DNA of 64,000 nucleotides, from NCBI GenBank assembly GCA_002506825.1, contig DAYH01000023.1, positions 92,905-156,904 on the forward strand. Direction: 5' to 3'. Below the pieces are notes generated by a model that saw only the letters and a list, made by a program, of their open reading frames with translations, was not told where the DNA came from and searched no databases. Within the stretch, counting starts at the first letter, position 1. Every line of letters starts with the position of its first letter. Origin of the DNA: Euryarchaeota archaeon UBA103 (GTDB taxonomy: Archaea > Thermoplasmatota > Poseidoniia > Poseidoniales > Thalassarchaeaceae). Below are positions 9,676 to 42,900 of this stretch, piece by piece. The position numbers and the translations under genes were made by a program.

Positions 9676-12600
9676 TTATCTGTCTCTAAAATTGGCACCG
9701 CTGTAGAACTTGTCTAGATACTCTTCACCATAGTAATACCACTGTTCCATAGTCCATCCGGGAGGAAGTCCCCCTGGTGGAAGCGGGGGGGTCATGGGAG
9801 GTGGAGGCGGAGGGGATGTGTTGTGAACAGGCATCATGGGAATGGCCGCAGGAGGTGGCGGATTGATCATAGGGAGTGGTTCGTGTTGATAGATGGGGTT
9901 TCTCTTTGGGCTTCTCCTAGCGATAGAATTGATGCCCACCACTATGGCCACTAAAGCAATCAGAGCCACAACTGAAGCACCTGCCAGGAAAATGGTTTCA
10001 GGAGACTCCTCGCCGCCGCTAGGCTGATTTTCAGCAGGTTGGCTCTGATCCTCCCCCTGAGGCACTACTGCATCGTACTTCATTTGCTCTGGCGTCCTTC
10101 TGTCGAAGCCGTTTTCATCCACTCCCTGGACACTCAATGTGAAGTAATCACCAGTACTGAGGCCACTTCCAGTGACCGGGAGGATGATGAAAGGACCTAG
10201 ATTGAATGAGGCCCCTGCACTGTGGCAAATTCCTGTTATCTTATTGCAAACTGTCCAAGTTACCCTGATATCAGTCAATGACTCATCGCCAATATTTGAG
10301 ATGATAACAGTAGGAGTGGCTCCGATATCGAATGAGTCTATCTCTATCTCGAAGTTTTCTTCCCAGTCAAGTGGGATATCATCGACGATAGTGTAACTCA
10401 GAGAGACGGTAGACGATGCCCCGTGACGATCTTCAGCGGTTATCTTGATGCTGTCAGAGCCTTCCTCAGGCCAGTTGGCTGTCATGATTCCGGTTATTGG
10501 GTCATAAAACACTGCGCCTGGATAGTAGCTGGTAGCGGTTATCCAAATTTCTTCGTCTGGATCATCGATATCTGTAATCCTGCTAATAAGATCTACTTGG
10601 GTCGAAGTACCCAGCTTCAGTGTGACATCTTCTATATCAGAAGTATCAATAATTGGAGCGTCGTTGACGTTTAACACGTGGAAAGTAACTGTGGTATCTG
10701 ATGACTTGTCCCCATCACTTGCCCTTAGGGATATCTCCACGAGTCCGTTTGAGTCGTCATCCAGAGAGTTGACGTTGATGGTTTGACCGAAAATACTAGC
10801 TTCGACTAGATTTTCATCTGATATCGACAAAATTTCCACTGTCACCCCCGAGACAGGGACCACTTGACCATTGTTATTGGTGTCAGATAGATAGTCAGTG
10901 AGGCCGAGACTGGCTGATCCTCCCTCATGAAAGGCCTGGATGGGTATTGGTGACCACCTAGGCGCACCGTTTTCTACGACATTGAACATCATCATGCCAG
11001 TATTTGACTCATCTCCGTCATGGACGCTGATTAGCATCCCTTGTGGAATTGGTGAGCCTTGGCTGTCGAGTAGAAGATTATCGAACCTTACCTCTATCTC
11101 CAGAGAAGATGGGTTCCACCCCAAGAACTCGGGCTCGGAGCTTGAGATTTCTAGATTGAAAAGCGAAGTTTCCGCGTCTGATACGAGTCCAACCACTGAA
11201 ACCATCTCAGTGGTCTGTACCTTTACGGTGGGAACTCCGGCGTAAGTCATGTCGCTATTTCCGAGTACTCTTGGAAGGGAGTTCTGCAGATAGAAAGCAT
11301 TCTCGGAAGTTAGCCATTCACTTGTCTGGCCAGAGGAGTCGGTCCATTTTACCCTTAGATCGTAATGTCCCATCGCAGCATCCAGAGGAGTATCGATATC
11401 GAATGAATGCCTTGCATTCTCACCTAATCCAATGATGGCGTGATTGGTGAGCCAATTATTGCTCCACATTGAAGAGGATGAAGGAGAGTACTCTAAGGAG
11501 GGTTGCATTGTATTGATATCATCAACTAGGTCATTGGAGATTGCTGAAACCTCGAATGTAACTGCTGATCCCCTGTCAACTGAGGTCGAGCCACTAGAAG
11601 AAGGCTGGCTGGCAGTCGGGGGCATATCATGCAGAGCGGCGGCGTCTGAGACATCATTGGAAGGTGCCCGATCTCCGGCATTTCCTGAAATCTTCGCCCT
11701 AATTGTTGTTGAGCCTAGGGCCGTGATGTCGATATCGGTAGTGTCCAAGAAAGCATTGTATGTCTGGGATCCGCCTACAGAGAAGTCGCCTATTGAGAAG
11801 GTGGATATCTCAATCTCGGAAAGACCATCCATCCAATTGATAGATAGTTGCCCGCCCCCCTCATATTCCTCTACTCCGTTGTTGGAAACCCTACAAGAGA
11901 TATCCAGAACATCACCTGAAACGAATCCAGAGTTTCCATTTCTATTTGAGATTATTATCTCTTCCACGCCAATGTCGACTAGAGGTATCATATCCAAGTC
12001 TACAGCAGACAGGAAGTTGTTGTAAGTAGTGTGGGGGCCATCCATCAATGCAAAAACAGGCCAGAAGTTTTCGAACTGAGTGTAGCCGCCCCCGGCTCTG
12101 ACTGCGCTCAGTGGGACTTGCCATGAGCTCTCCACAGGGGAGTTAGGAGTTAGCGTAAGTTGTTCGAAGCCATTGTTATGACTAGCCAGCATCCATTCTC
12201 TGAAACTGTGATGAGGCTTTACGCCGTTATCATAAGAGTCAGGGCTGACCTTCTCCGTGATCGCCCCATAAAGGAAAACAGATACTGAACTGAGAGAACC
12301 TGTATACATCGAATTTACAGTGACTGTGACTTGATCTGTAGATTGGTCATATTGTGCCTCCAGCTGCATGGCGTAGTTTGACGTGTCTGAATCCATGCAA
12401 CCTCCATTTGAATAGTCTGAGTCATAATAGTTTGACCCTCCTGCTCCAACTTTGTAACATGTTCCTGATTGCTTATCTGCAAAGGAAAATACGGGAATTC
12501 CAGAAGCGGCGGCCGAGACATGGCTTCGACGATTGATCGGACTATCATCCGGATATCCCCCTGAGCTAGACTGGAAGAACGAAACAAAGGTAAAATCTTC

Positions 12601-12855
12601 TGGATTGGAGGACTTCAGGTTGTCCAATGATGGGGAGGCGCTACTCATGCACGGCCCGCACCAGTGTGCGCCGACATATTCTCCAAATACGGGATGTCCG
12701 GGACTTGTTGCGAACATCTTAGCTTCGATCTGCTCTAATTCTTGCCTCTCCTGTACGGCTTCTTCTACCACACAAAAAGAGACAAATGACGATAACAGCA
12801 TCAGTGAAACTAGGGTAAATGAAGAAACTAGGGCATAGGGCGTAGTATACCTCAT
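9676..12855 (-). CDS. Giant surface protein with an N-terminal anchor, an extracytoplasmic thioredoxin domain (WCGPC), cadherin/Ig-like repeats, a C-terminal TM helix and a polyproline tail
   Basis: 1059 aa with a hydrophobic N-terminus. The thioredoxin-fold signature is FGEYVGAHWCGPCMSS ... GIPVFSF (cis-Pro loop). A long beta-rich region contains the cadherin-like VLNVNDAPII. The TM helix is IFLAGASVVALIALVAIVVGI and is followed by an 80-aa Pro-rich tail. Confidence 0.8.
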   Translation of the reverse strand: MRYTTPYALVSSFTLVSLMLLSSFVSFCVVEEAVQERQELEQIEAKMFATSPGHPVFGEYVGAHWCGPCMSSASPSLDNLKSSNPEDFTFVSFFQSSSGGYPDDSPINRRSHVSAAASGIPVFSFADKQSGTCYKVGAGGSNYYDSDYSNGGCMDSDTSNYAMQLEAQYDQSTDQVTVTVNSMYTGSLSSVSVFLYGAITEKVSPDSYDNGVKPHHSFREWMLASHNNGFEQLTLTPNSPVESSWQVPLSAVRAGGGYTQFENFWPVFALMDGPHTTYNNFLSAVDLDMIPLVDIGVEEIIISNRNGNSGFVSGDVLDISCRVSNNGVEEYEGGGQLSINWMDGLSEIEISTFSIGDFSVGGSQTYNAFLDTTDIDITALGSTTIRAKISGNAGDRAPSNDVSDAAALHDMPPTASQPSSSGSTSVDRGSAVTFEVSAISNDLVDDINTMQPSLEYSPSSSSMWSNNWLTNHAIIGLGENARHSFDIDTPLDAAMGHYDLRVKWTDSSGQTSEWLTSENAFYLQNSLPRVLGNSDMTYAGVPTVKVQTTEMVSVVGLVSDAETSLFNLEISSSEPEFLGWNPSSLEIEVRFDNLLLDSQGSPIPQGMLISVHDGDESNTGMMMFNVVENGAPRWSPIPIQAFHEGGSASLGLTDYLSDTNNNGQVVPVSGVTVEILSISDENLVEASIFGQTINVNSLDDDSNGLVEISLRASDGDKSSDTTVTFHVLNVNDAPIIDTSDIEDVTLKLGTSTQVDLISRITDIDDPDEEIWITATSYYPGAVFYDPITGIMTANWPEEGSDSIKITAEDRHGASSTVSLSYTIVDDIPLDWEENFEIEIDSFDIGATPTVIISNIGDESLTDIRVTWTVCNKITGICHSAGASFNLGPFIILPVTGSGLSTGDYFTLSVQGVDENGFDRRTPEQMKYDAVVPQGEDQSQPAENQPSGGEESPETIFLAGASVVALIALVAIVVGINSIARRSPKRNPIYQHEPLPMINPPPPAAIPMMPVHNTSPPPPPPMTPPLPPGGLPPGWTMEQWYYYGEEYLDKFYSGANFRDR

Positions 12856-21360: not shown

Positions 21361-22385
21361 TGCGCAAGACTGTAAGACATGAGCGCGACGGGCCATTGAT
21401 TAGAATGGCACCTATTGGAATCATCGGAGTTGGCTCATACGTTCCACCCCGTGAAATGAGTAATGATGATTGGGCAGAAATCGTGGATACCAGTGACGAG
21501 TGGATTACTACCAAGACTGGTATGAAAAAAAGAAGGATTGCAGACTCTACTATGTGTACGTCTGACTTAGCCGTAGAGGCCTGCAGAGTGGCATTAGATA
21601 ATTCTGGACTGAAGGCGTCTGATATCGATTTGATTATACTGGCAACATCTTCTCCTGATGTCCCTATGTCTTCAACGGCTGGAATAGTTCAGCATAAGCT
21701 AGGTTGTACGGATTGTGTTGCTTTTGACGTCAATGCGGTATGTGCTGGTTGGGTTCATGCGCTGGATATAGGATCCAGATTTGCAGGAACAGAGGGGTAT
21801 GGAAACGTACTAGTTGTTGGATCCGAGGTATACTCTAGAATCCTGAATTGGGAAGATCGTTCTACTTGTGTACTATTTGGAGATGGTGCAGGGGCCGTGG
21901 TACTTTCCCAGGTCCCAGAGGGGAAGGGAATTATTGGATCATGGATGATGAGTGATGGCTCTGGATCCAGCGTTATTGAGATTCCTGCAGGAGGGGTCAG
22001 GATTCCGATCCCTAGTGAAGGTTTCAAAGATGGAATGCAATACTTTCACATGGACGGGAGGGCCGTTTGGGACTTTGCAATCGAGGCGTTTCCTCAAGCG
22101 GTATTATCAGTTCTCGAAAGATATGGAAAAACTATAGATGAAGTTGATCTTATTGTACCTCATCAGGCCAACATAAATATCATTGAGAAGGGGATGGAGA
22201 AGCTAGGACTCCCCATGGACAGAACGTTCACGAATCTCCATAAGTATGGAAATACGGCGGGGGCGAGTGTCCCTATTGCAATGCATGAGGCATTCGAAGA
22301 AATGAAGATCGTAGAAGGGGACCTGGTCGTCACCGTTGCATTTGGTGGTGGCTTGGCATGGGGCGCTAATCTCATTCAGTTCTAA
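21360..22385 (+). CDS. 3-oxoacyl-ACP synthase III (KAS III / FabH-like) condensing enzyme
   Basis: Cys-His-Asn triad motifs are present: NAVCAGWVHAL, VPHQANINII and YGNTAGASVPIAM. Possible starts are ATG 21360 (overlapping the ALDH stop), 21342 or 21405. Confidence 0.8.
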   Translation: MRKTVRHERDGPLIRMAPIGIIGVGSYVPPREMSNDDWAEIVDTSDEWITTKTGMKKRRIADSTMCTSDLAVEACRVALDNSGLKASDIDLIILATSSPDVPMSSTAGIVQHKLGCTDCVAFDVNAVCAGWVHALDIGSRFAGTEGYGNVLVVGSEVYSRILNWEDRSTCVLFGDGAGAVVLSQVPEGKGIIGSWMMSDGSGSSVIEIPAGGVRIPIPSEGFKDGMQYFHMDGRAVWDFAIEAFPQAVLSVLERYGKTIDEVDLIVPHQANINIIEKGMEKLGLPMDRTFTNLHKYGNTAGASVPIAMHEAFEEMKIVEGDLVVTVAFGGGLAWGANLIQF

Positions 22386-25300
22386 TTGACAGGGCCCCAA
22401 GAGCCGGTAGACTGGTTGAAAGAGAGGATTGAACCATCTGGATTCTGACAGTACACATTGCCCGTATTATCGACCCAAACAAGTTGCCCGTTTTCATTCA
22501 TCTTAGCATCACTGGGAGGCTTAATTGACTCTATTCTTCTTTCTTCTGGCTGAGGGGATGTAGAGATGGGGACTGAAACATTTGAGTATATTGTAGACTC
22601 ATTTCTTACCATACCAGAATCATCTGATTGAGAGAATAATGACTGATCATTTTCCCCTCTCCCCCTCACAAAGAGCAGTCCTCCGAGGGCGCCTATCACT
22701 ACGACAGAAACTAGTGCCGTGAAAATAAGCATTGTTGTTGATTCCTCGGCTACTTGTCTGTCAGGATCGTTTGGGAATGCATCTCCGTTGTCTCCTACGC
22801 CATCTAGGTCTGAGTCTTCCCACTCAAATGGATCTAGGGGGAAGTCATCTACGCCGTCCATGAATCCATCATCATCAGAATCTGGATCGGTAGCACTTGT
22901 ATTTCTTGCATCTTCCTCCATATCGGACGAGCCATCATTGTCATCATCAGTATCCGAGTTATCCCCTATGCCGTCCATGTCATTATCATTCCACTCGGTC
23001 GAATCTAGAGGGAGGTCGTCTTGCAAATCTGGGAATCCATCATTGTCATCGTCATCGTCCTCTTCTGAATCCTTACAGCCATCTAGATCATTGTCGATAT
23101 CTACTGTGCTGGCCCACCCAACTAAGCCTATTGGACATCTATCGAAGATATCATCAATTCCATCTCCATCATCGTCCAAATCCACTTCATCATGGAGCCT
23201 ATCCCCATCTGAGTCGAGAAGGCAATCATCCGCTGATGTAGAAGATTCTTGCAGGGTAATCATATCTTCAGGACATTTTTCTGTAGCTATACTTCGTGTC
23301 GATGGTACGAACTCATCGAGTGGAGCGGGCGTCTGCTGGGCCTGTCCTTGTTCAGATACGAAGAATCCTATGTCTGCATCTATGCAAGTTGATTGGCCTG
23401 GGGATGGCTGGAAAGTTCCCGGCAGACATTCTTCTTGTGAAACAGATGCTTCGGATGAAGTGAAGAACCCTGGGCTTGCATCTAGGCAGGCTGATTGCCC
23501 TGGAGTTGGCTGATAAGTTCCAGGCACGCATGGATTCTGATTGTTAGAGCCTTCAGAGAGTGTGTAGTAGCCCGGTTCGGTCAGCATGCAGGATATCTGT
23601 CTTGTCTGATTCTGGTAGCTCCCTGGCATACACGGAGTCTGCTCGGAAGAACCGGAAGAGTCGGCATAGTATCCCTCTTCTGAGTCCAAGCAAGCTGATT
23701 GGCTTGTTGCGGATTCATCCGGGTTGTAAGTTCCCGCGGGACATGGATTTTGGGAAGTGGACATTTCTGAGTCTACATAGAAGCCAGAATCCGCATTGAT
23801 GCAATTTTGCTGGCCGGGCGAAGGCTGATATTCTCCTATCTGACATTCTTCTTGGCTATCTTCGCCTGATAATTCGACGAAGTGTCCGGGATCTGCCTGC
23901 AAGCATGATTCTTGTCCAGCATACGGCTGATAGTCTCCCGGAGAGCATGGAGTCTGGTACGAAGCTCCGAGAATTGCCGAGTAGTTCCCTGGATCGGCTT
24001 CTAGACAAGCGGTAGAGCTGTTTGCCCCAGATACTGGGTTATAGCTTCCAGAGGAGCATGGAATCTGTGTAGATGATGCATTGCTATCTGTGTAGAACCC
24101 GGGACTGGCCTCTAGACATTCGGTGAGTCCAGCCTGATTAGCCCAATAACCAGGGAGGCAGGGAGAAGGCGATGTAGCTCCTCCTGAGTCGATATAGTAG
24201 CCTGGTGGCGCTGGAGTGCAAGAAGTCTGCCCAGACATAGATTGGTAGAATCCGGAAGTACAGGGGGTCTGGTAGGAGGAGCCATTGCTAGGGACGGCAT
24301 GCCCGGGGTCTGCATCTAAGCAAGACTGAGAGCTATTGGCCGCATCTGATGGATTGTAGGTACCAGCTGAGCAGGGAGTCTGAGTAGTAGAGCCAGGCTG
24401 CTCTACGTAGTATCCCGGATACGCGTCGATACACTCTGTTGCCATGTAAGAAGACTGGAATGTTCCAGGCTGGCACGGAGTTTGTGATGAAGACGCATTC
24501 GATGGGACGTAGTTACCAGGGGTCGCCTGCAGACACAGTGTCTGATTCGAAGATGGCTGATAGAAACCGGGATCGCAGGCTATCTGTGAGATGCTTGCAA
24601 TTCCGGGCACATAATGCCCCGGAGATGACGATAGACAGGATTGCTGAGCAGACAGTGGCTGGTAATATCCCGGATCGCAGGGGATTTGGGATGTCGAGCT
24701 GTAGTTAGGAACATGATGTCCGGAAGAGGCGTCAATACAGGAGGTAGAGCCATTAGAAGGCTGATATGTTCCCGGTGAGCAAGCAGTTTGGTTAGAAGAC
24801 CCAGAGGTCACGACATAGTTCCCAGCAGACGCGACGATACATGCCACCTGTGCAAATGAAGACTGGTAGTTTCCTGGGCTGCATTGTGTTTGGGAAGTTG
24901 CTCCTGGTTGAGGAACGTAGTTACCAGGGGAAGATGGAGTCTGGAAAGAGGACCCGCTCAGGGATACAAAGTAACCCTGACTAGCCTGCATACATGAAAT
25001 TTGACCGGATAGAGGCTGGTACGATCCAGGGGCACACATATCCTCAGAAGTTGCTCCGACTGAGGAGACATACCTTCCGGGGGAGGCGTTATCGCATGAA
25101 CCGCTACCAGTTTTTCCCTGATAAGTTCCTGGCTGGCACTGGAAGAATCCGACTTGTATCTCTGCGTCGATTGACTCTGTTTGATTACCGATGGCCGAGT
25201 TGTCGAGAGTTGATTTTAGAGTAAGTGTGAAACTATAATTCCCAGAGCTTGAGTTATTAGGGGTAACTGAAATAAGTAATGACGAAGCATTCGTGAAGGA

Positions 25301-27613
25301 TGTTCCAATGGTACTTACGCTTGCTACATTTCCTCCCTGTGAAGAGTTATCTGATGTGGAAATCAGGGACATGGCCATTGAGGAGTCGTAGTAGTACAAG
25401 CTAACGCTAAAGTCCCCATTCGAGGATGAGTTAGTGAGACTAACTGAGACGGTAGTATCTCTCGGAACGAATATCGAGAATAAGTCGCCGGAGTCATTGG
25501 ACCATGAGTAGTTCCCAATTTGTCCGCCATAGGTGGCACTCCTAGACTGAAGCGGAGTGGGGGATACATCATCCGCATCGCCGTATTGGTTGTTCGTATA
25601 ATTTCCTGCGGGGGAGGGGGTGCATGATGACTGTGCGAGGTCATTCTGATAGAAACCAGGAGCACAATGATACTGGCCGGGAGATGCTTCTTCATCGACG
25701 TAATACCCACTTGATGCCTCGTAGCAAATAGTTCGCCCCTCATCGGGTTGGTAGTTTCCTATTGTACAGCTTTCATGGAAAAGGGAGCCTTGTAAAGAGA
25801 AGTGGCCAGAGGATGAGTTCTGACATGATAATCGCCCCCATTGACCGTCTGGACAGCTTACCCATCTAGCTGGATTATTTGGAAAATCATCTATTGATGA
25901 GTTAAACCCGTCCCCATCGCTGTCGTCACTGATGGCCAAATCCAAAACATTACGAATTCCGTCTCCATCAAGATCCTGTTCAGAGTATGCAACTGATTCC
26001 CCAAGAGTGGAGTTATTGAAGTCCATCAGATATGGCACGAGGATATCATTTGAGGACCCATCAAATTCTCCGGACTGACTTCCCCAACAGAACAGGGAGT
26101 AGCTCTGATTTATCGCACATGTGGATTCAATGCCAGTTGCTAATGCTATCGCTGGAGATGGCATGAGGGCGTATGAGGGAACGTTCCCGTCCGTTCCTGA
26201 GCAACTGCTGGAACTGGAGCTACAGGTCCCATCCCCCCACTGTCCATGAGTATTGACTCCCCAGCAACTAATTGACCCATTGTCCAACAAGGCACATGTG
26301 TGCCATCTAGTGCCATCAATATCGGATGCTGTCCTACCATTTGGCAACTGAATATCAGATGATGAACCTGTTACTGGGCCATTCTGAGCGGAAACTGTGT
26401 AGGTCTTACCCCAGCAACTGATCGACCCGTTATCGAATATAGCACATACGCTATATCCCGGAGTTACCAATGAGGATGCCCTAAGGCCCGTTGAGTGATT
26501 AGCCAACACTGGTGAGTTTCTACTGGTCGTAGTGCCATCGCCTAGATTTCCGAAACCATTGAATCCCCAACACTTGATTTCACCAGTATCTAGGATTGCA
26601 CAGGTGAAATCATTACCTGCTGAAACAGAAATTGCTGTTCTATTTACTCCCAGGTCAACTGCTACAGGAGAGTTTCTGTTAACATTTGAGCTATCTCCTA
26701 TTTGACCGTGATTATTCCTTCCCCAGCAATTGAGCGATGCATCGTCCAGAATTGCACAATTATGGTAGTTCCCATTTGAAATAGCAACAGGAGTCCGAGT
26801 TCCGAAGTCGACAGTCCCATTACTTAGGGAGTTTAAGCCGATTCCTAGTTGGCCATAGTTGTTTGCTCCACTGCACCTAAGGGTCCTGTTGTACAGAATT
26901 GTACAGTCTCCTGCGCTTGAAATTACTTCGTCATTGGTGACTACTGGAGCCCCTGTACTATTGAAAGTCACTAGGCTTCCATTGGATAGGACAAGTGTAG
27001 GGGAGCCAGTATCCAAGTCTAGAACTGAGTGACTGAAGACAGAGCCCCTATCTGATCCTGGTTGATTGAAACCCAGGTTATTTACAGGAGTTGGTGTTGG
27101 TGATGACGATACCTCGCTAAGTGTCCATGAGTCGGCCCCCCATGAGTCTCCAGAGGTCCCTCCATTGCCATTAACTAGGTTTACAGCCAGATAGAATACT
27201 ACGTCTCCAGAACCTGTCGGAGGGGCTGTCCAATCAACTGACCATGCCCTGGAATTAGAGTTCGTATGGGTTACCTCGCCTAAGGAAATCTGAGCATTCG
27301 GCCCTGGATTAGAGAAAACACCCTGGCTGGAGTCCAGATTGAATCCTCCAGTAGTGCCGCTTGGCCCTCCAGAAGCGCTTATTGAAAGAGAATATGTGAT
27401 ACCTGCGGCATAGCCAGATGAGGGAGTACCCGATAGAGAGGGAGTGACAGTTGGAGTGGTCGAGGAATGGCATGAGCCAGCCCCGCAACCATCTGTAGAA
27501 CCGGTTCGTCCAGAGCTGTTCGCGAATGCGGTATCTGGGACAGCCATTAGCAAAAGCATCAGAAAGGTTCCCACAATAATTATTCTAGTTTTCATACTAC
27601 TCTCGTCCACCAT
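22382..27613 (-). CDS. Giant (1743 aa) mosaic surface protein built from many domain types (order given in the evidence)
   Basis: Domain order: signal peptide, reeler-like CX4CH domain, RCC1 propeller, TSP3 repeats, Cys-pair (ephrin-receptor-like) repeats, PPC-like domain, 17 more Cys-pair repeats, acidic TSP3 block, TM helix and cytoplasmic tail. Supporting motifs: signal peptide MKTRIIIVGTFLMLLLMAVPDTAFA; W..WTAP..G.V.F reeler-like pattern; six NxxGQLG/CWG blades; DDDGDGIDDIFDRCP type-3 repeats; TM LIFTALVSVVVIGALGGLLFV. Confidence 0.85.
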   Translation of the reverse strand: MVDESSMKTRIIIVGTFLMLLLMAVPDTAFANSSGRTGSTDGCGAGSCHSSTTPTVTPSLSGTPSSGYAAGITYSLSISASGGPSGTTGGFNLDSSQGVFSNPGPNAQISLGEVTHTNSNSRAWSVDWTAPPTGSGDVVFYLAVNLVNGNGGTSGDSWGADSWTLSEVSSSPTPTPVNNLGFNQPGSDRGSVFSHSVLDLDTGSPTLVLSNGSLVTFNSTGAPVVTNDEVISSAGDCTILYNRTLRCSGANNYGQLGIGLNSLSNGTVDFGTRTPVAISNGNYHNCAILDDASLNCWGRNNHGQIGDSSNVNRNSPVAVDLGVNRTAISVSAGNDFTCAILDTGEIKCWGFNGFGNLGDGTTTSRNSPVLANHSTGLRASSLVTPGYSVCAIFDNGSISCWGKTYTVSAQNGPVTGSSSDIQLPNGRTASDIDGTRWHTCALLDNGSISCWGVNTHGQWGDGTCSSSSSSCSGTDGNVPSYALMPSPAIALATGIESTCAINQSYSLFCWGSQSGEFDGSSNDILVPYLMDFNNSTLGESVAYSEQDLDGDGIRNVLDLAISDDSDGDGFNSSIDDFPNNPARWVSCPDGQWGRLSCQNSSSGHFSLQGSLFHESCTIGNYQPDEGRTICYEASSGYYVDEEASPGQYHCAPGFYQNDLAQSSCTPSPAGNYTNNQYGDADDVSPTPLQSRSATYGGQIGNYSWSNDSGDLFSIFVPRDTTVSVSLTNSSSNGDFSVSLYYYDSSMAMSLISTSDNSSQGGNVASVSTIGTSFTNASSLLISVTPNNSSSGNYSFTLTLKSTLDNSAIGNQTESIDAEIQVGFFQCQPGTYQGKTGSGSCDNASPGRYVSSVGATSEDMCAPGSYQPLSGQISCMQASQGYFVSLSGSSFQTPSSPGNYVPQPGATSQTQCSPGNYQSSFAQVACIVASAGNYVVTSGSSNQTACSPGTYQPSNGSTSCIDASSGHHVPNYSSTSQIPCDPGYYQPLSAQQSCLSSSPGHYVPGIASISQIACDPGFYQPSSNQTLCLQATPGNYVPSNASSSQTPCQPGTFQSSYMATECIDAYPGYYVEQPGSTTQTPCSAGTYNPSDAANSSQSCLDADPGHAVPSNGSSYQTPCTSGFYQSMSGQTSCTPAPPGYYIDSGGATSPSPCLPGYWANQAGLTECLEASPGFYTDSNASSTQIPCSSGSYNPVSGANSSTACLEADPGNYSAILGASYQTPCSPGDYQPYAGQESCLQADPGHFVELSGEDSQEECQIGEYQPSPGQQNCINADSGFYVDSEMSTSQNPCPAGTYNPDESATSQSACLDSEEGYYADSSGSSEQTPCMPGSYQNQTRQISCMLTEPGYYTLSEGSNNQNPCVPGTYQPTPGQSACLDASPGFFTSSEASVSQEECLPGTFQPSPGQSTCIDADIGFFVSEQGQAQQTPAPLDEFVPSTRSIATEKCPEDMITLQESSTSADDCLLDSDGDRLHDEVDLDDDGDGIDDIFDRCPIGLVGWASTVDIDNDLDGCKDSEEDDDDDNDGFPDLQDDLPLDSTEWNDNDMDGIGDNSDTDDDNDGSSDMEEDARNTSATDPDSDDDGFMDGVDDFPLDPFEWEDSDLDGVGDNGDAFPNDPDRQVAEESTTMLIFTALVSVVVIGALGGLLFVRGRGENDQSLFSQSDDSGMVRNESTIYSNVSVPISTSPQPEERRIESIKPPSDAKMNENGQLVWVDNTGNVYCQNPDGSILSFNQSTGSWGPVN
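23330..25138 (-). repeat. About 17 tandem 34-37-aa units, C-x-PG-x-Y-Q-x(5-8)-C-x(3,4)-PG-x-Y-V-x(9-11) (coding repeat, roughly 102-111 nt period)
   Basis: The first Cys of successive units falls at aa 826, 860, (894 degenerate), 911, 945, 979, 1013, 1047, 1081, 1118, 1152, 1186, 1223, 1257, 1291, 1328, 1362 and 1396. Each has a second Cys at +14 or +17. Three similar units lie at aa 587-675 (25589..25855). Confidence 0.8.
26069..26941 (-). repeat. RCC1/BLIP-II-like beta-propeller repeats (6-7 blades, about 50-aa period)
   Basis: Blade motifs are CSGANNYGQLGIG, CWGRNNHGQIGDS, CWGFNGFGNLGDG, CWGKTY, CWGVNTHGQWGDG and CWGSQSGEFDGS. Each is preceded by C(A/T)IL.D. Confidence 0.75.
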
Positions 27614-36637: not shown

Positions 36638-37378
36638 TCAGAGGTTCCTGTCATATTTGTTCCCCCCATCTAGTTCCATCTTGCTCTGTTCTAGTCTCTC
36701 TTCCATTCTGATAACCTCATTACTTAGCATTGCTAGTCCGATAAATAGAATCAGGAATGAGAGGAAACCCATCATCAATACTGTCCTGATAGCAGGATCT
36801 AAGCCCGTCTCTTCCCCATTGACTAAGACTATCCCAGGGTGCCTCTTCTGATACCATGTGGTAGCCAGTGCAGTTATTGGGACTAGAGCAAACCCGAATA
36901 GTCCCACTGCGGCGAGAGTGTCTCTAGTTTCCTGGCCATCTGGTTGAGATCTTCTAGATAGGACTAGGAATAGTGCCACGCCCGTCAGTAGGGCGAATGT
37001 ATTGAGGCGAAGATCCCCCCAATCCCAAGGGACGCCCCATTCTGCAGACCCCCAAATCGGTCCTGAGGTGATTACTCCGAGACCGAAAAGTAATCCGAGA
37101 TCTGAGCCGGTAGAGAACCATCTCCATCCCCAATCTGACCTATCCTTATACCATGCTACTGCCCCTAAGAACAACATACAAAATGCTAGGAATGAAGACC
37201 ACGCGAAGGGCACGTGCCAGTATAATATCCTGTATGCCTCGGGGGCGTTGAAAGCTGTTGAGTCCACCATGGGCGCGTAAAGTACTCCCATCAAAGCCGT
37301 GACGATCGCACCTGAAATCCCTAGTGCTGTCAGGCCGATGCCTATTCTGACTGATGAAGAGGAATCGGTGTCGGACAC
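36638..37378 (-). CDS. ccmC: Heme exporter/heme lyase component CcmC
   Basis: Trp-rich WWD motif WGSAEWGVPWDWGDLRLN, the conserved His context YWHVPFAW, and 6 TM helices. Confidence 0.85.
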   Translation of the reverse strand: MSDTDSSSSVRIGIGLTALGISGAIVTALMGVLYAPMVDSTAFNAPEAYRILYWHVPFAWSSFLAFCMLFLGAVAWYKDRSDWGWRWFSTGSDLGLLFGLGVITSGPIWGSAEWGVPWDWGDLRLNTFALLTGVALFLVLSRRSQPDGQETRDTLAAVGLFGFALVPITALATTWYQKRHPGIVLVNGEETGLDPAIRTVLMMGFLSFLILFIGLAMLSNEVIRMEERLEQSKMELDGGNKYDRNL

Positions 37379-37416
37379 AGCCCTTCGAGAGGCTACCTAG
37401 TGAAGAATGCTATTCT

Positions 37417-38850
37417 CTATGCATCAGGAATAATAACAGCCACAGCCCAGACCATAGCAGAGATAATGCTTGCAATAATTATCGATGCCAGAGGGCTTCC
37501 TATGGAAATCTCTGAGGACATACCTACTTCCATGATTACAGATAGTGCATCAACTAGTTCCATGAATGGCCAAATTAAGACTATCAGGAGGAGAGATGCC
37601 ACTGCGGCGCCAGACCTACGTAAATCGGAAACCAGAAGGTGAAGAGCAGTAGCCGCGCAAGAAATATCAATTATTACCAGAGAAGGTAGCCAGAGCCACC
37701 TCAATACCTCCTCAGAACTGTCAACTGGCAAAGAGCCACTCAATACTAACCATGAGAGGTAGGTCAGAGGAAGCGGCAGAAGTATGGATGATGCCATAAT
37801 AGATGTTGCTGGACGGAATTGTGGACCGCAAACTGCTGACCACCATTTCCCGCATTCTTCCTCCGAAAGTCTACGAATCATAGCAGGGGAAATAACGGCG
37901 GAGATGAACGCTGGAGTGAGAACCAGAGCTGCGGCCAGATGGTTTCCGATATTGGGGTTCGACAACGCCGCCTGCGACGTATCCATTCCTATCAACACTG
38001 AATAAGATAAGAGAAGAGCCAATATGGCAGGAGTCGCCTTTCCAATGGTATCTACTGGGTTTCTCCTCTCAATTGAGTAAGTCCATGAGAATAGCGATGA
38101 GATAGTCTTACTATGTCTTTCATTAAGGAATTGTCTTTCCTGAATAATATCTTCTTCAATAGTGTTGTTCGACTCGGAAATTCCCCCGGAATCAATAGTT
38201 AAGATCCTCCTTGAGCATGAGATTACTTCTTCATCATGTGAGGCCATTACTACGGTATTTCCATGTTGCGATAGCTCACTTATCCACTTCTTTAGAACTC
38301 CCTTGGAGAATGAGTCCAAGCCTTCCGATGGCTCATCTAGGAAAACTATTCTTGGAGTCCTGCACATCATTGCTGGAGCCATGCCAGATATTACTGCCAG
38401 ACGTCTCCTCAGTCCGGCCGACAGTTGCGAAACCCTGTCCTCGGCCCTGTGAGACATGCCCCACTCTTCTAGGATCTTTTTGGCCTCTATTTGACTACAA
38501 TCCATTCCTGATACTTTCAGTGCGGTGGATAGTCTCTCCATGACTTTCTCCTCTCCGCAAACACCATCCGATTGCAGAGTCAGTCCGAATGGATATGGCT
38601 TTTGCCTTGTTCCAGAGTAATTCCTGATTGTGAGTGATTCGCCCTTCTCTGAAAACCAATCAACTTGGCCTGTCGTAAGGGGGAGGATTCCCACAAGAGA
38701 TTCGATAAGAGTGGTCTTCCCAGATCCATTTTCCCCTACGAAGCATATAACATCACCTTGGAAAATCTCAAGGTTCAATTTCTGGATTACGGTTCGTGTC
38801 CCCCTGGTAACGCTAACGTCTCTTGCCTTGAGGACCGGTGACTGCGCCAT
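37417..38850 (-). CDS. ccmA: Fused CcmA (ABC ATPase) and CcmB-like (6-TM permease) heme-export protein
   Basis: N-terminal Walker A GENGSGKTT, signature LSAGLRRR and Walker B VFLDEPSEGLD. The C-terminal ~230 aa is hydrophobic with about 6 helices. The gene lies directly upstream of ccmC-ccmD. Confidence 0.7.
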   Translation of the reverse strand: MAQSPVLKARDVSVTRGTRTVIQKLNLEIFQGDVICFVGENGSGKTTLIESLVGILPLTTGQVDWFSEKGESLTIRNYSGTRQKPYPFGLTLQSDGVCGEEKVMERLSTALKVSGMDCSQIEAKKILEEWGMSHRAEDRVSQLSAGLRRRLAVISGMAPAMMCRTPRIVFLDEPSEGLDSFSKGVLKKWISELSQHGNTVVMASHDEEVISCSRRILTIDSGGISESNNTIEEDIIQERQFLNERHSKTISSLFSWTYSIERRNPVDTIGKATPAILALLLSYSVLIGMDTSQAALSNPNIGNHLAAALVLTPAFISAVISPAMIRRLSEEECGKWWSAVCGPQFRPATSIMASSILLPLPLTYLSWLVLSGSLPVDSSEEVLRWLWLPSLVIIDISCAATALHLLVSDLRRSGAAVASLLLIVLIWPFMELVDALSVIMEVGMSSEISIGSPLASIIIASIISAMVWAVAVIIPDA

Positions 38851-39957: not shown

Positions 39958-42900
39958 TTGGGATTATACAGGGCCAACATGTGGCTCTCTAAGAGAGCCA
40001 TGGGAAAGAGAGCATCTTCAGCGACTCCAATCATTGTAGCCTTGATGGTTCTGATGCTTGACGTTTCTGTAGGAGTGAGTGGTTCTGAATGGGAAATTAA
40101 TAGCTCTGATGCACAAATGGAAAATGTAGATTCAGAGGCAATCATAGATATTCCGCCCCTCATGTGCGAGTCAGGCGAGTGCCCTCTCAAAGACAGGAGC
40201 CCTCATCTTCCGCCAAATGGGGTGGATTGGCCAGTTCAAGAACCCGGTTGGTGGTTTAATTTCTGGAATGATAAAGATGCCAATGGCATGGACGATAGGT
40301 TGCAATGGATAATTTCTGGAGATCGGGAGTCCGTTTCCACTAGCGCAGTTATGGGAGATGATGGCAGGATGACTGTGGCGATTTTCGTTTGCTACTCTTG
40401 GCACCCTGGAGATGATGACATATCTGATTTGAAGGAGGTATTATCCAAGTATGGATGGGAAGAGTATGGGACTTACTTCCGAGCGGTAGACATTCTTGAT
40501 ACTTTGATTGTCGAGCATGTCCCGGTCAGTGCATTGATTGAAATTTTGATGCTCGATGGAGTCGTACTGGTTGAACAGCAGGATGTCCTGGTCCCCTACC
40601 TCAACACCGCGACCAAGGGATCTAAAGTCAGGACATCAGATGTTTTCAGTGAGACTATGATGGACTATGGTTACGATGGCTCTGGAGTGGTTATCGCCAT
40701 TGCAGATACCGGCGTTGACAATGAGCATTTCTCACTCGATGACTTCTCGGATCAAAATTCTGACAATGGGGCAGAGCCAGATGAGTTACCAGATCCTAAG
40801 TGGGTAGCCGGATGTGATTCAACCTCTTGGAATCAACAAGATTGTGATGATGGCGGTGATGACCCTGATGATGGAGATGGGCATGGCACCCATGTTGCGG
40901 GCATAGCTCTCGGAACCGGAGGCGATGAAAGGGAGAATCAAGGATACGCACCCGGTGCGTATCTTGTTGATATTAAGGTCATGACGGATGCTGGAGCATC
41001 CAACTCCGGATATACTGTGGCGGGCATTAACTGGGCAGTGCAGAATGTAGATACTGATTGGGGTAACAATGATTCTAGTAGAGGCATAGATATTCTATCA
41101 ATGTCTTTTGGTAGTGGGTCAAGCCCTGCCGGGGAGGATCCGGGAGATAACGGAACCAGTCAAGATTCGCTAGCAGTTAATGCGGCATCTGAAGCTGGCA
41201 TTGTTTGTGTGGCCGCGATTGGGAATGACGGGTATCGAAGGGTAACCTCCGTAGGAGCGGCGGACTCCGCCATAACTGTAGGTTCGATTGATGATAAAGC
41301 CAGCATTGAGAGGGGGGACGATTCTATCGCATCTTACTCTAACTCTGGACCCAGGGAAGACGATGGGGATGACAATCAGTGGGATGAGCTGAAACCGGAT
41401 GTTGTTGGTCCGGGCTCCAATATTATGTCGGCACAGCACGCCGCATCTAGCTCACAATTACCCGGATCTGCCAAACCACTTGCCAGTGACAATTATGTCC
41501 AAAAATCGGGAACTAGTATGTCCACTCCGGCAGTAGCCGGATTCATAGCAGCGATGCTGCAGATGGATGAGGATCTAACCCCTCAAGAGGTAAAAGACAT
41601 ACTTAGGAACAATTCCGAGACAAGGGGGGCCTCATCAGCTCCTGATATTTCCGAGAGGTGGAATGATCAATATGGATTTGGGATAATTGATGGGGAGATG
41701 GTCATGCAGGCCATACTAGGAGATACTGGAGGGGGAGATGGAGATGGCAATGGAACTGATCCACCTCCTACGGGGACAGAGGAATGGGTGATAATAGAAA
41801 CTCCCGAGGAAGATGCTTGGCTTGTAGAGGGCGAAACATACAGCGTCAGGGGGCATATAGATGAGGATGCTGATACTAATGGGACAATTGAAGAGGTAAA
41901 TGTTAGCATTTCATACAGGTACAAGCCTGATGAAGGGCCGCGGCAGACTGAGATTTTAGTCGATTGGCATATAGTTCAGGGAACCATGAATTGGTCCACT
42001 CCATTCTCTATTCCGGAATTCACAGAAGACGAAATAGATATTGAGGAGATAATAATCAAGGCGAAGGCCAGGAATGAGTTCAACGTGTGGAGCGAGATGG
42101 AGCAGAGTGAGCATCCAGTAGGGTTACTCGAGGTTACATTGGGAGGCCCTAGTGGACAAAGTCCCGTATCTGGAAATACAAATATCTTTGGCGGATGGGA
42201 GTCAGTTAATGGGGCTAATATTCAATGGAGATTAGGTACTGAAAACTGGGAAACATCTCAACAGTTTGGAGGGACTGGGAGCGCCGCAGGAGATTGGTCT
42301 GTGAACTGGGATACGACCTCTGTTAATGATGGGTTTTATCGAATCTCGGTTAGGGTAGTGAGCGGAGATGGCATTTTCTCGGATGAAGTTCGGAGAACCG
42401 TAGAGGTAGATAATGACCCCCCCGCCCCTGATTTGATATTCCGTAGTGGGATTAGTGTGAGCGAATACGGATTACCCGTATCTGAGACATTCATCAACAC
42501 ATTCCTAGAAGTTAGTTGCGAGGTTAGAAATGATGGCGATTTGGATGCTTCTGAGGTTACCATCTACCTAAAGGAAAATGGCGCGAGGAAGGATGAGATA
42601 ACGATTCCCAGTATCGGCAGTGGAGATATTGTAGATGTAATACTTTATTGGAATCCATTGTCCTTGGGAGATAGAACTCTATCTATTTCATTAGATCCTT
42701 CTAACGAAATCGAGGAGATAGATGAAGAAGATAACGAGCAGTCAGTTGAGTTTCCTGTATTGCAGCGGCCCCAGGGTGTCGATCTTGCATTCAGAGATGG
42801 TGCAGTAAGAACTGAACCTCCCGTTCCCAGACCTAATGAGCAGTTTCTCATTACTGCCAGAGTTGATAATCTTGGATCCAGTGATGCAACGAACCTTGAG

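What the first reader, a model, noticed from the sequence alone, without database searches (positions are those of the whole stretch)
22382..27613. 1743-aa surface mosaic built from domain types typical of eukaryotic extracellular matrix
The deduced order is signal peptide; reeler-like domain (aa 35-165); RCC1 propeller (225-515); TSP type-3 Ca-binding repeats (546-580); 3 Cys-pair repeats; PPC-like beta-sandwich (678-800); about 17 Cys-pair repeats (826-1428); a 150-aa acidic TSP3 block with exact DxDxDGxxDxxDxCP units (1465-1618); TM helix; and a 95-aa tail. Reeler, thrombospondin-3, ephrin-receptor-like and RCC1 modules on one archaeal polypeptide is a striking combination. It suggests an adhesin or particle/prey-binding fibre and possible inter-domain gene transfer.
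Basis: partly seen in the sequence, partly recalled or inferred. Interest (0 to 1): 0.65.

Follow-up and report, generated by a model that had tools for sequence, protein, structure and literature searches.

The report
Giant archaeal surface fibre protein
This is a real, transcribed gene for a 1743-residue membrane-anchored surface fibre of a marine group II archaeon; the family is common in that lineage, and its tip domain also sits on the cell's respiratory oxidase and may carry a haem.

Summary
HMMs support RCC1 repeats and about 20 Ephrin_rec_like Cys-pair units. The N-terminal domain matches NCBIfam choice-of-anchor V, and sequence profile and predicted fold both place it with the F-spondin reeler domain. 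The TSP3-like and PPC-like parts are supported only by orthologue profiles, and only one exact DxDxDGxxDxxDxCP unit exists. It is not an assembly artefact: 50-96% identical orthologues are collinear and keep all 60 extracellular Cys, one contig spans the ORF, independent samples tile it, and metatranscriptomes hold it. The organism is a Poseidoniales archaeon. The combination is not rare there: more than 800 relatives were found, and the tip domain occurs in 121 of 121 genomes of the order. No evidence points to transfer from eukaryotes. Best reading: a type I, disulfide-laddered, Ca-binding, probably glycosylated stalk holding a reeler-like plus propeller head, adhesin-like. New here: the tip domain has an invariant C-x(1-5)-C-H motif. 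It is fused to COX1 in 60 of 61 genomes and heads the Rieske/cytochrome b operon. Ccm genes are present but canonical cytochromes c were not found, so it may be a haem-binding module.

The parts
22382..27613 (-). Whole ORF, 1743 aa plus stop codon
   Evidence: Orthologues of 1703-1786 aa at 49-96% identity are collinear.
27521..27613 (-). Signal peptide, aa 1-31 (K/R n-region, hydrophobic core, AFA|N cleavage site). Several orthologues start at the residue aligned with M7.
   Evidence: sequence; orthologue alignment
27104..27520 (-). Reeler-fold choice-of-anchor V domain, aa 32-170
   Evidence: NF041895 at 89 bits. Reeler profile and fold matches.
27467..27487 (-). C43-x4-C48-H49 motif. The partner His115 lies in GEVTH.
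   Evidence: Conserved in 28 of 28 orthologues as CX4CH or CX2CH. C-x(1-5)-C-H across the wider family.
25979..27061 (-). RCC1-type beta-propeller, aa 185-545. Six clear blades each carry a C-x9-C pair; one degenerate first blade.
   Evidence: Pfam RCC1, RCC1_2 and WD40_RLD; Cys positions
25868..25978 (-). Two short TSP3-like Ca-binding motifs (DLDGDG, DSDGDG), aa 546-582
   Evidence: regex. Pfam TSP_3 gives only E=0.25.
25574..25855 (-). Three Cys-pair (Ephrin_rec_like) units, aa 587-680
25139..25573 (-). PPC / collagenase-CBD-like beta-sandwich, aa 681-825 (weak support)
   Evidence: PPC at 17.8 bits, below cut-off. Profile hits ColH CBD 5iku at E=3.5e-4.
23324..25138 (-). Seventeen Cys-pair units of 34-37 aa (one of 51 aa), aa 826-1430: the stalk
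   Evidence: PF07699 at 146 bits, 16 stretches. Unit table. All Cys conserved.
22754..23221 (-). Acidic TSP3-like Ca-binding block, aa 1465-1620 (62 D+E against 5 K+R)
22667..22738 (-). Transmembrane helix, aa 1626-1649, followed by RGRG
   Evidence: sequence
22385..22666 (-). Cytoplasmic tail, aa 1650-1743. The last 43 aa (22385-22513) form a conserved beta-motif: NExGQxVWxDxxGxV[YWF]xQNxDGSxLxFxxxTGxW.
   Evidence: conservation; the only copy in this genome

Best explanation
The gene encodes a type I membrane-anchored giant surface protein of a marine group II (Poseidoniales) archaeon.

Anatomy, from membrane outward after Sec export:
- The C-terminal helix anchors the protein.
- An acidic thrombospondin-type-3-like block binds Ca2+ close to the membrane.
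- Above it, 17 + 3 hairpin units, each closed by one disulfide (C-x13-16-C), form a long rigid stalk. A PPC/collagen-binding-like beta-sandwich interrupts the stalk.
- The stalk holds a head far from the cell. The head is an RCC1-type propeller with one disulfide per blade, plus an N-terminal reeler-fold domain.
- The ectodomain is very acidic, rich in Ser/Thr/Asn and enriched in N-glycosylation sequons.

Most likely function: a binding fibre (adhesin or capture protein) for particles, polymers or other cells.

The tip domain probably holds a cofactor, most likely covalently bound haem, at its C-x4-C-H site with His115.

Shown here: the ORF, the domains, their order, conservation, intactness, transcription and distribution.
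Inferred: topology, disulfide pairing, Ca binding, glycosylation, the binding function and the cofactor.
For: - Domains.
- Purifying selection on the whole architecture: 26 orthologues at 50-96% identity are collinear with almost no gaps, and all 60 extracellular Cys are conserved.
- Disulfide pairing: C-x13-16-C pairing leaves no unpaired Cys in 826-1410, although one half-unit has lost its Cys.
- Ectodomain composition: 187 D+E against 32 K+R. Sequons 37 against 22.6 +/- 4.0 expected; 1 of 2000 shuffles reaches that number.
- Intact in reads: one 7224-nt contig in run X1 spans the ORF with no differences. Three independent studies tile it at 99% identity or more, without indels.
- Transcribed: metatranscriptome contigs at 97% identity or more cover parts of it.
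- Typical surface-protein evolution: the gene sits at the same locus as in relatives but diverges faster than its neighbours. It is 85% identical in L015 where most neighbours are 91-98%, and 70% in L018 where most are 80-89%.
- Published context: thrombospondin-like genes in this group are read as adhesion genes (PMC6461757).
- Tip cofactor: CH is invariant and the upstream Cys sits at spacing 1-5. The same domain is fused to COX1 in 60 of 61 genomes of the order. It heads the Rieske/cytochrome b operon. CcmC, CcmE and a CcmF-like gene are present, with no exported CXXCH ORF in this genome. Across the order, CcmE occurs in 54 of 61 genomes and class I cytochrome c in 0 of 61.
Against: - No ligand, partner or phenotype is known, and the organism is uncultured.
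- The PPC-like and TSP3-like calls rest on marginal or composition-biased scores.
- Expression looks ordinary rather than very high.
- For the cofactor: the commonest family motif is C-x-C-H, which to my knowledge is not a known haem c attachment site. A Cu or Zn site, or a small disulfide loop, would also fit. The AF2 model is least confident over the motif (pLDDT 59-69).
Confidence: 0.6

Rival explanations
1. It is mainly a structural envelope or spacer protein: part of the cell coat or a glycocalyx-like layer of these wall-less archaea, rather than a specific adhesin.
For: - Conserved at a syntenic locus in close relatives, as the only gene with this architecture found in this genome.
- Rigid disulfide- and Ca-stabilised repeats, an acidic ectodomain and many sequons.
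- The window holds two more giant TM-anchored surface proteins.
Against: - Transcript contig depth is like that of the neighbours, not at the level expected of an S-layer protein.
- The full architecture was found mainly in the window's genus and a few related genera, not across the order.
- The protein evolves fast.
Confidence: 0.15
2. It is a cell-surface redox protein. The haem-bearing tip carries out or senses extracellular redox chemistry (iron or haem capture, peroxide or oxidant handling). The rest of the protein serves only to present it.
For: - The tip domain shares 40% identity and all motif columns with the COX1-fused copy.
- The evidence ties the domain family to electron transfer and to the Ccm system.
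- The target orthogroup uses CX4CH or CX2CH; to my knowledge both spacings are known to take haem c.
Against: - No cofactor path exists along about 1450 residues of stalk, so the tip cannot be wired to the membrane.
- The large propeller and the beta-sandwich argue for binding functions.
- Haem attachment is untested.
Confidence: 0.2
3. The mosaic arose by recent inter-domain transfer of extracellular-matrix modules from a eukaryote.
For: - The Pfam families are named after animal proteins.
- PF07699 is found in 26 of 301 genomes of the phylum, 24 of them Poseidoniales, and in 0 of 14 control genomes.
Against: - GC content of 0.48-0.50 matches the flanks.
- The locus is syntenic in the genus.
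- Repeats are diverged to 60-70% at DNA level.
- The reeler-like domain is universal in the order and widespread in prokaryotic clusters.
- TSP3_bac is, by its Pfam name, a family of bacterial TSP3 repeats, and RCC1-repeat proteins also come from bacterial MAGs.
- Each unit has only 2 Cys.
Confidence: 0.05
4. The ORF is a chimeric or collapsed assembly of a repeat region.
For: - Several MAGs of relatives break their contigs at aa 1464-1475 and resume at about aa 1405-1413 on another contig.
- Loose ends of other contigs cluster at 22931-23177.
Against: - One contig spans the ORF at depth 73 with no differences.
- Three other studies tile it without indels.
- The listed joints have sides of only 20-22 letters, inside the acidic repeat.
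- No tandem DNA repeat of the units was found, and unit copies are only 60-70% identical at DNA level.
- Orthologues down to 50% identity have the same length and the same unit number.
Confidence: 0.01

Closest known systems
NCBIfam NF041895, choice-of-anchor V domain-containing proteins
   Same: The N-terminal domain scores 89 bits against a cut-off of 42. It sits directly after the signal peptide, as in the rest of the family. NCBI already names an orthologue this way.
   Different: Here the domain heads a 1743-aa mosaic anchored by a TM helix. Many family members are 150-400-aa proteins whose C-termini I read as other sorting signals. I found no function on record for the family.
Reeler domain (Pfam PF02014; F-spondin reeler domain, PDB 3coo, 2zou, 2zot)
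   Same: Same beta-sandwich fold: Foldseek E about 2e-5, TM about 0.6, 21% identity. Profile match at E=1.3e-4. 27 of 62 family members hit Pfam Reeler, the best at 1e-10.
   Different: The prokaryotic domain has an N-terminal G-C-x(1-5)-C-H extension and a conserved T-H. In the profile alignment F-spondin has VTES where the family has THS. In this lineage the domain is tied to respiratory genes.
Ephrin_rec_like repeats (Pfam PF07699)
   Same: Sixteen stretches add up to 146 bits. The C-x-P-G-x-Y hairpin signature is shared.
   Different: Each 34-aa unit has only two Cys, which gives one inferred disulfide. From memory the eukaryotic repeat is richer in Cys; I did not inspect the HMM. There is no solved relative by sequence. 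The repeats form an array of 17 + 3 units.
Thrombospondin type-3 / bacterial TSP3 Ca-binding repeats (PF02412, PF18884; COMP 3fby, TSP-2 1yo8)
   Same: D-x-D-x-D-G-x-x-D-x-x-D motifs. The orthologue profile matches COMP and thrombospondin at about 1e-6. Orthologues hit both Pfam families.
   Different: This protein alone stays below the Pfam thresholds. Only one unit has the C-P ending of the animal repeat; the others end in F/L-P-x-D, like the bacterial form.
Giant Ca-dependent repeat adhesins of bacteria (for example RTX adhesins such as LapA or the Marinomonas ice-binding adhesin; from my own knowledge)
   Same: A long repeat stalk stiffened by Ca2+, with ligand-binding modules at the distal end, in an aquatic microbe.
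   Different: The anchor is a TM helix and export is by Sec with the N-terminus outward. The stalk is built of disulfide hairpins, not Ig-like repeats. There are no RTX or T1SS signals. The host is an archaeon.
Cytochrome f / cytochrome c1 (analogy for the N-domain family only; from my own knowledge)
   Same: An exported beta-sandwich with the Cys...Cys-His site about 10-25 residues after the signal cleavage site. One paralogue has a C-terminal TM anchor and lies in the operon with Rieske and cytochrome b.
   Different: No cytochrome f among the 50 Foldseek matches listed. The motif is mostly C-x-C-H. Haem binding is untested.

Membership tests
NCBIfam NF041895 choice-of-anchor V | HMM score above the curated cut-off | tested here: met
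   89 bits against 42, aa 22-161
NCBIfam NF041895 choice-of-anchor V | Domain directly follows a signal peptide at the N-terminus | tested here: met
   Starts at about aa 20-45 in most of the 150 best hits listed; here at aa 32
Reeler domain PF02014 | Pfam HMM above the gathering score | tested here: inconclusive
   21.5-21.8 bits against 21, only on the isolated segment and only profile positions 85-122 of 131. 27 of 62 relatives match, the best at 1e-10.
Reeler domain PF02014 | Reeler beta-sandwich fold | tested here: met
   AF2 pLDDT 90. The top 8 Foldseek hits are F-spondin reeler chains, E 1.7e-5 to 7.8e-5, TM 0.55-0.60.
RCC1 repeats PF00415 / PF13540 | HMM above the cut-offs; repeated blades | tested here: met
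   62.7 against 21.7 and 73 against 22 bits. Six blades with C-x9-C pairs.
RCC1 repeats PF00415 / PF13540 | Seven-bladed propeller | tested here: inconclusive
   Six clear blades plus a degenerate segment at 185-235. WD40_RLD scores 109 bits, below its cut-off of 150. This part was not folded.
Ephrin_rec_like PF07699 | HMM above the gathering score | tested here: met
   146 bits against 23.1, 16 stretches
Ephrin_rec_like PF07699 | Cys-rich pattern of the eukaryotic repeat (several disulfides per unit, as I recall it) | tested here: inconclusive
   Only 2 Cys per 34-aa unit. The HMM consensus was not inspected. No PDB relative by sequence.
Thrombospondin type-3 repeat PF02412 / TSP3_bac PF18884 | HMM above the gathering score on this protein | tested here: not met
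   E=0.25 for 546-580 and nothing for 1425-1640
Thrombospondin type-3 repeat PF02412 / TSP3_bac PF18884 | D-x-D-x-D-G-x-x-D-x-x-D Ca-binding motif in tandem; relatives match the family | tested here: met
   Five motifs in 1480-1611. 6 of 10 orthologues match TSP3_bac and 5 of 10 match TSP_3. The profile matches COMP and TSP at about 1e-6.
PPC domain PF04151 | HMM above the gathering score | tested here: not met
   17.5-17.8 bits against 25.9. The profile hits the ColH collagen-binding domain at E=3.5e-4 and ColG at 0.5-0.7. It works like a PPC-type sandwich, but membership is not shown.
c-type cytochrome (covalent haem) | CXXCH or an accepted variant in an exported domain | tested here: met
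   CX4CH at aa 43-49 after the signal peptide. Two orthologues have CX2CH. Family-wide the commonest form is CX1CH, which to my knowledge is not an accepted variant.
c-type cytochrome (covalent haem) | Haem covalently attached | not testable with these tools
   This needs protein chemistry. The context is supportive: CcmC, CcmE and a CcmF-like gene are present, and no other exported CXXCH ORF was found.
WW domain (proposed for the tail by another first-stage note) | Match to a WW model or WW structures | tested here: not met
   No WW family among the Pfam matches up to E=10. The PDB profile search gives only summed weak hits to PQQ-type propeller blades.

The most novel reading that the evidence does not exclude
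The reeler-fold N-terminal domain is a previously unrecognised class of beta-sandwich c-type cytochrome, with haem attached at C-x(1-5)-C-H and bis-His ligation. In marine group II archaea it would replace cytochrome c1 (the copy in the Rieske/cytochrome b operon) and the soluble cytochrome c (the copy fused to COX1). The 1743-aa protein would then be a cell-surface fibre tipped with such a cytochrome, an extracellular redox or haem-handling device in one of the most abundant groups of ocean archaea.
Probability: 0.4. Interest if true: 0.85.

Novelty: new variant of a known kind. Interest (0 to 1): 0.5.

Why it matters
Marine group II archaea are among the most abundant planktonic archaea, and none has been cultured. 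How they touch particles, algae and polymers is inferred only from genes like this one. The gene shows how their surface fibres are built: a disulfide-hairpin stalk, a Ca-binding base, and a propeller plus reeler-like head. Such fibres are common in the lineage.

The tip domain matters more. It is universal in the order, fused to the terminal oxidase, and placed where cytochrome c1 is said to be missing (PMC6336850). It coexists with a conserved haem-attachment system for which no canonical substrate was found. If the domain binds haem, that would fill a gap in the MGII respiratory chain and define a new kind of cytochrome. It would also give the animal reeler fold a prokaryotic, redox-linked relative.

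Tried and rejected
1. The first AF2 run, with 20 close orthologues, gave pLDDT 48 and was discarded. A 62-sequence alignment gave pLDDT 90.
2. Pfam on the 61-aa linker and on the tail found nothing. A WW domain is not supported. The tail profile gives only summed weak matches to PQQ-type propeller blades, each stretch with E>20.
3. A phmmer search of 486 aa of the Cys-pair array against PDB found nothing.
4. Literature searches found no description of this family: 'choice-of-anchor'; Poseidoniales plus RCC1; marine group II plus ephrin, reeler or giant protein.
5. I rejected the two joints in read laying (22954>23149 and 23059>27225). Their sides are only 20-22 letters, lie inside the acidic repeat, and come from other contigs.
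6. I rejected an S-layer-level expression reading. The depth spike at 22672-23339 in run X25 comes from a 360-nt contig that matches only about 20 nt.
7. The idea that the N-domain is specific to this mosaic was rejected.
8. The predicted model's coordinates could not be read, so the Cys/His geometry was not measured.

Full report
**Observation**

A 1743-codon ORF lies at 22382..27613 on the minus strand. The whole protein hits three Pfam families: Ephrin_rec_like (PF07699, 146 bits, 16 stretches), RCC1_2 (73 bits) and RCC1 (62.7 bits). It also hits NCBIfam choice_anch_V (NF041895) at 89 bits against a cut-off of 42, over aa 22-161.

Scanned as separate segments, the N-terminal part just reaches Pfam Reeler (21.5 bits against 21). 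The 678-825 part reaches PPC at 17.8 bits, below its cut-off of 25.9. TSP_3 is not significant.

Counting Cys gives 17 units of 34-37 aa (one of 51 aa) in 826-1430, and 3 units in 587-680. Only one exact DxDxDGxxDxxDxCP exists, at aa 1480. Five DxDxDGxxDxxD motifs lie in 1480-1611.

The phrase 'exact ... units' is overstated. The PPC and TSP3 calls needed more sensitive tests.

**More sensitive tests**

- A 62-sequence alignment of the N-domain (A2) hits the F-spondin reeler domain in PDB at E=1.3e-4. 27 of the 62 members hit Pfam Reeler, the best at 1e-10.
- AF2 with this alignment gives pLDDT 90. The top eight Foldseek hits are F-spondin reeler chains, with E about 2e-5 and TM about 0.6.
- An orthologue profile of 672-826 hits the collagen-binding domain of clostridial collagenase ColH at E=3.5e-4. 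That is weak support for a PPC-type sandwich.
- An orthologue profile of the acidic block hits COMP and thrombospondin-1/-2 type-3 repeats at about 1e-6. Of 10 orthologues, 6 hit TSP3_bac and 5 hit TSP_3.
- The Cys-pair array has no relative in PDB by sequence.

**Not an artefact**

- Twenty-five orthologues at 49-96% identity align with the query with almost no gaps.
- All 60 extracellular Cys are conserved: in all 26 sequences at most positions, and in at least 22 at every position.
- At DNA level the repeat units are only 60-70% identical, and no tandem repeat of the units is detected.
- In run X1 one 7224-nt contig spans the ORF without a difference. Runs from three other studies tile it at 99% or more, without indels.
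- The two listed joints have sides of 20-22 letters inside the acidic repeat, so I reject them.
- Metatranscriptome contigs at 97% identity or more cover parts of the ORF, at depths like its neighbours.

**Organism and distribution**

Relatives lie in MAGs titled Candidatus Poseidoniales, that is, marine group II. The locus is syntenic in three relatives. The protein diverges faster than its neighbours: 85% identical in L015 where most neighbours are 91-98%, and 70% in L018 where most are 80-89%.

More than 833 proteins share RCC1 plus Ephrin_rec_like. Only the closest 28 also carry the N-domain.

Within the phylum, PF07699 occurs in 26 of 301 genomes, and 24 of those are Poseidoniales. GC content matches the flanks.

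So the combination is a lineage habit, not a singular event. I see no sign of recent transfer from a eukaryote. An ancient acquisition of the repeat cannot be excluded.

**The tip domain**

A phmmer search of 1.84 billion cluster representatives finds 1324 clusters with this domain, always near the N-terminus. The motif is G-C-x(1-5)-C-H. CH is invariant, C-x-C-H is the commonest form, and a second His in GE[AV]TH is present in at least 90% of the alignment. The target orthogroup has CX4CH, with CX2CH in two members.

The domain is in 121 of 121 genomes of the order, at 2-8 copies each. This genome has five profile-positive copies:

- One is fused to the N-terminus of haem-copper oxidase subunit I. 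COX1 scores 467 bits over aa 233-685, in an operon with COX3, COX4 and an ORF with a CuA motif that I read as subunit II.
- One is a 297-aa protein with a C-terminal TM helix that heads an operon with cytochrome b and an ORF carrying Rieske-type Cys/His motifs.
- The other three are the target, an 898-aa repeat protein, and a 374-aa ORF with hydrophobic C-terminal stretches that I read as TM segments.

The COX1 fusion is present in 60 of 61 genomes sampled across all three families of the order.

The genome encodes CcmC (in this window), CcmE and a CcmF-like protein. It has no exported CXXCH ORF. The only exported C-x(1-4)-C-H ORFs are six proteins of this kind. Across the order, CcmE is in 54 of 61 genomes and class I cytochrome c in 0 of 61.

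Tully (PMC6336850) notes that MGII have cytochrome b and Rieske but lack a canonical bc1 complex.

Together this makes a haem-binding electron-transfer role for the domain family plausible. The target's domain is 40% identical to the COX1-fused copy and shares all motif columns.

The caveat is that C-x-C-H is, to my knowledge, not a known haem c site. A Cu or Zn site remains possible.

**Stalk, base and tail**

- Pairing C-x13-16-C within each unit leaves no free Cys, even though one half-unit has lost its Cys. I therefore infer one disulfide per unit, and likewise one per propeller blade (C-x9-C).
- The ectodomain has 187 D+E against 32 K+R, and 37 sequons against 22.6 +/- 4.0 in shuffles.
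- The last 43 residues of the cytoplasmic tail are conserved across a wider set of family members, and the motif is unique within this genome.
- No WW family appears among the Pfam matches. The tail only weakly resembles a single PQQ-type propeller blade.

**Mechanism**

I read the protein as a type I surface fibre: a TM anchor, a Ca-binding acidic base, a long disulfide-hairpin stalk with an inserted sandwich domain, and a head of propeller plus reeler-like domain. Its most likely job is binding of particles, polymers or cells. This agrees with how thrombospondin-like genes of this group are read in the literature (PMC6461757).

The tip probably carries a cofactor. If so, the fibre may also do or sense redox chemistry outside the cell. 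The stalk has no cofactor sites, so the tip cannot be wired to the membrane.

The rivals are an envelope/spacer role, a primarily redox role, recent inter-domain transfer, and an assembly artefact. They are weighed in their own sections.

**Limits**

- The model's coordinates were not readable.
- The genome is 83% complete.
- Metatranscriptome contigs can contain DNA.
- All functional statements are inference.

Noticed in passing
G000:C15:6830-9148 (= L037:3828-6149, minus strand): Haem-copper oxidase subunit I (Pfam COX1, 467 bits, aa 233-685) carries an N-terminal signal/TM segment plus a reeler-like G-C-N-C-H domain. It lies in an operon with COX3, COX4 and an ORF with a CuA motif. The fusion is present in 60 of 61 Poseidoniales genomes.
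   Followed up: yes
G000:C9:1-2823 (= L038): Minus-strand operon: a 297-aa reeler-like G-C-T-C-H protein with a C-terminal TM helix, then a DUF7318 membrane protein, then an ORF with Rieske-type motifs (CTHLCC...CICHSS), then cytochrome b. The first gene sits where a cytochrome c1/f analogue would be expected.
   Followed up: partly
window 36638-38850 (minus strand); G000:C6:102660-103169; G000:C9:61838-62113: CcmC-like and ABC (CcmA/B-like) genes lie in the window. A CcmF-like gene and CcmE lie elsewhere. The genome has no exported CXXCH ORF. Class I cytochrome c (PF13442) is absent from 61 of 61 genomes of the order, while CcmE is present in 54 of 61.
   Followed up: partly
G000:C6, minus strand, 362-aa frame (the frame containing MNRSAIVFLICITLILAPG...SCGGSCHG): A sixth exported protein has signal peptide + C-x3-C-H. 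The domain profile at E<=0.001 did not catch it.
   Followed up: no
L017, L019-L022 versus L026-L029 (relatives' MAG contigs): In several MAGs the orthologue's contig ends at aa 1464-1475 and another contig resumes at about aa 1405-1413. This recurrent assembly break lies at the start of the acidic block. It is probably caused by acidic repeats shared with paralogues or by strain variation.
   Followed up: partly
window 22385-22513 (tail, aa 1701-1743): The conserved cytoplasmic motif NExGQxVWxDxxGxV[YWF]xQNxDGS...TGxW is shared by many RCC1/Ephrin-like family members. Other MGII surface proteins end in a different Trp-rich motif (WTDENGxTWR...WWxGxxW). Both could be oligomerisation or sorting tags.
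   Followed up: partly
window 9676-12855 (minus strand) and 39958-44775 (plus strand): Two more giant TM-anchored surface proteins lie in the same window. One is 1059 aa, with a Pro-rich tail ending in GWTMEQWYYYGEEYL. The other is 1605 aa, subtilisin-like by eye, with a CxxC...CxxC zinc-ribbon tail.
   Followed up: no
G000:C13:121348-122787 (minus strand): A paralogue has Ephrin_rec_like repeats in a 1134-aa frame, and the N-domain profile (A2) did not match it.
   Followed up: no
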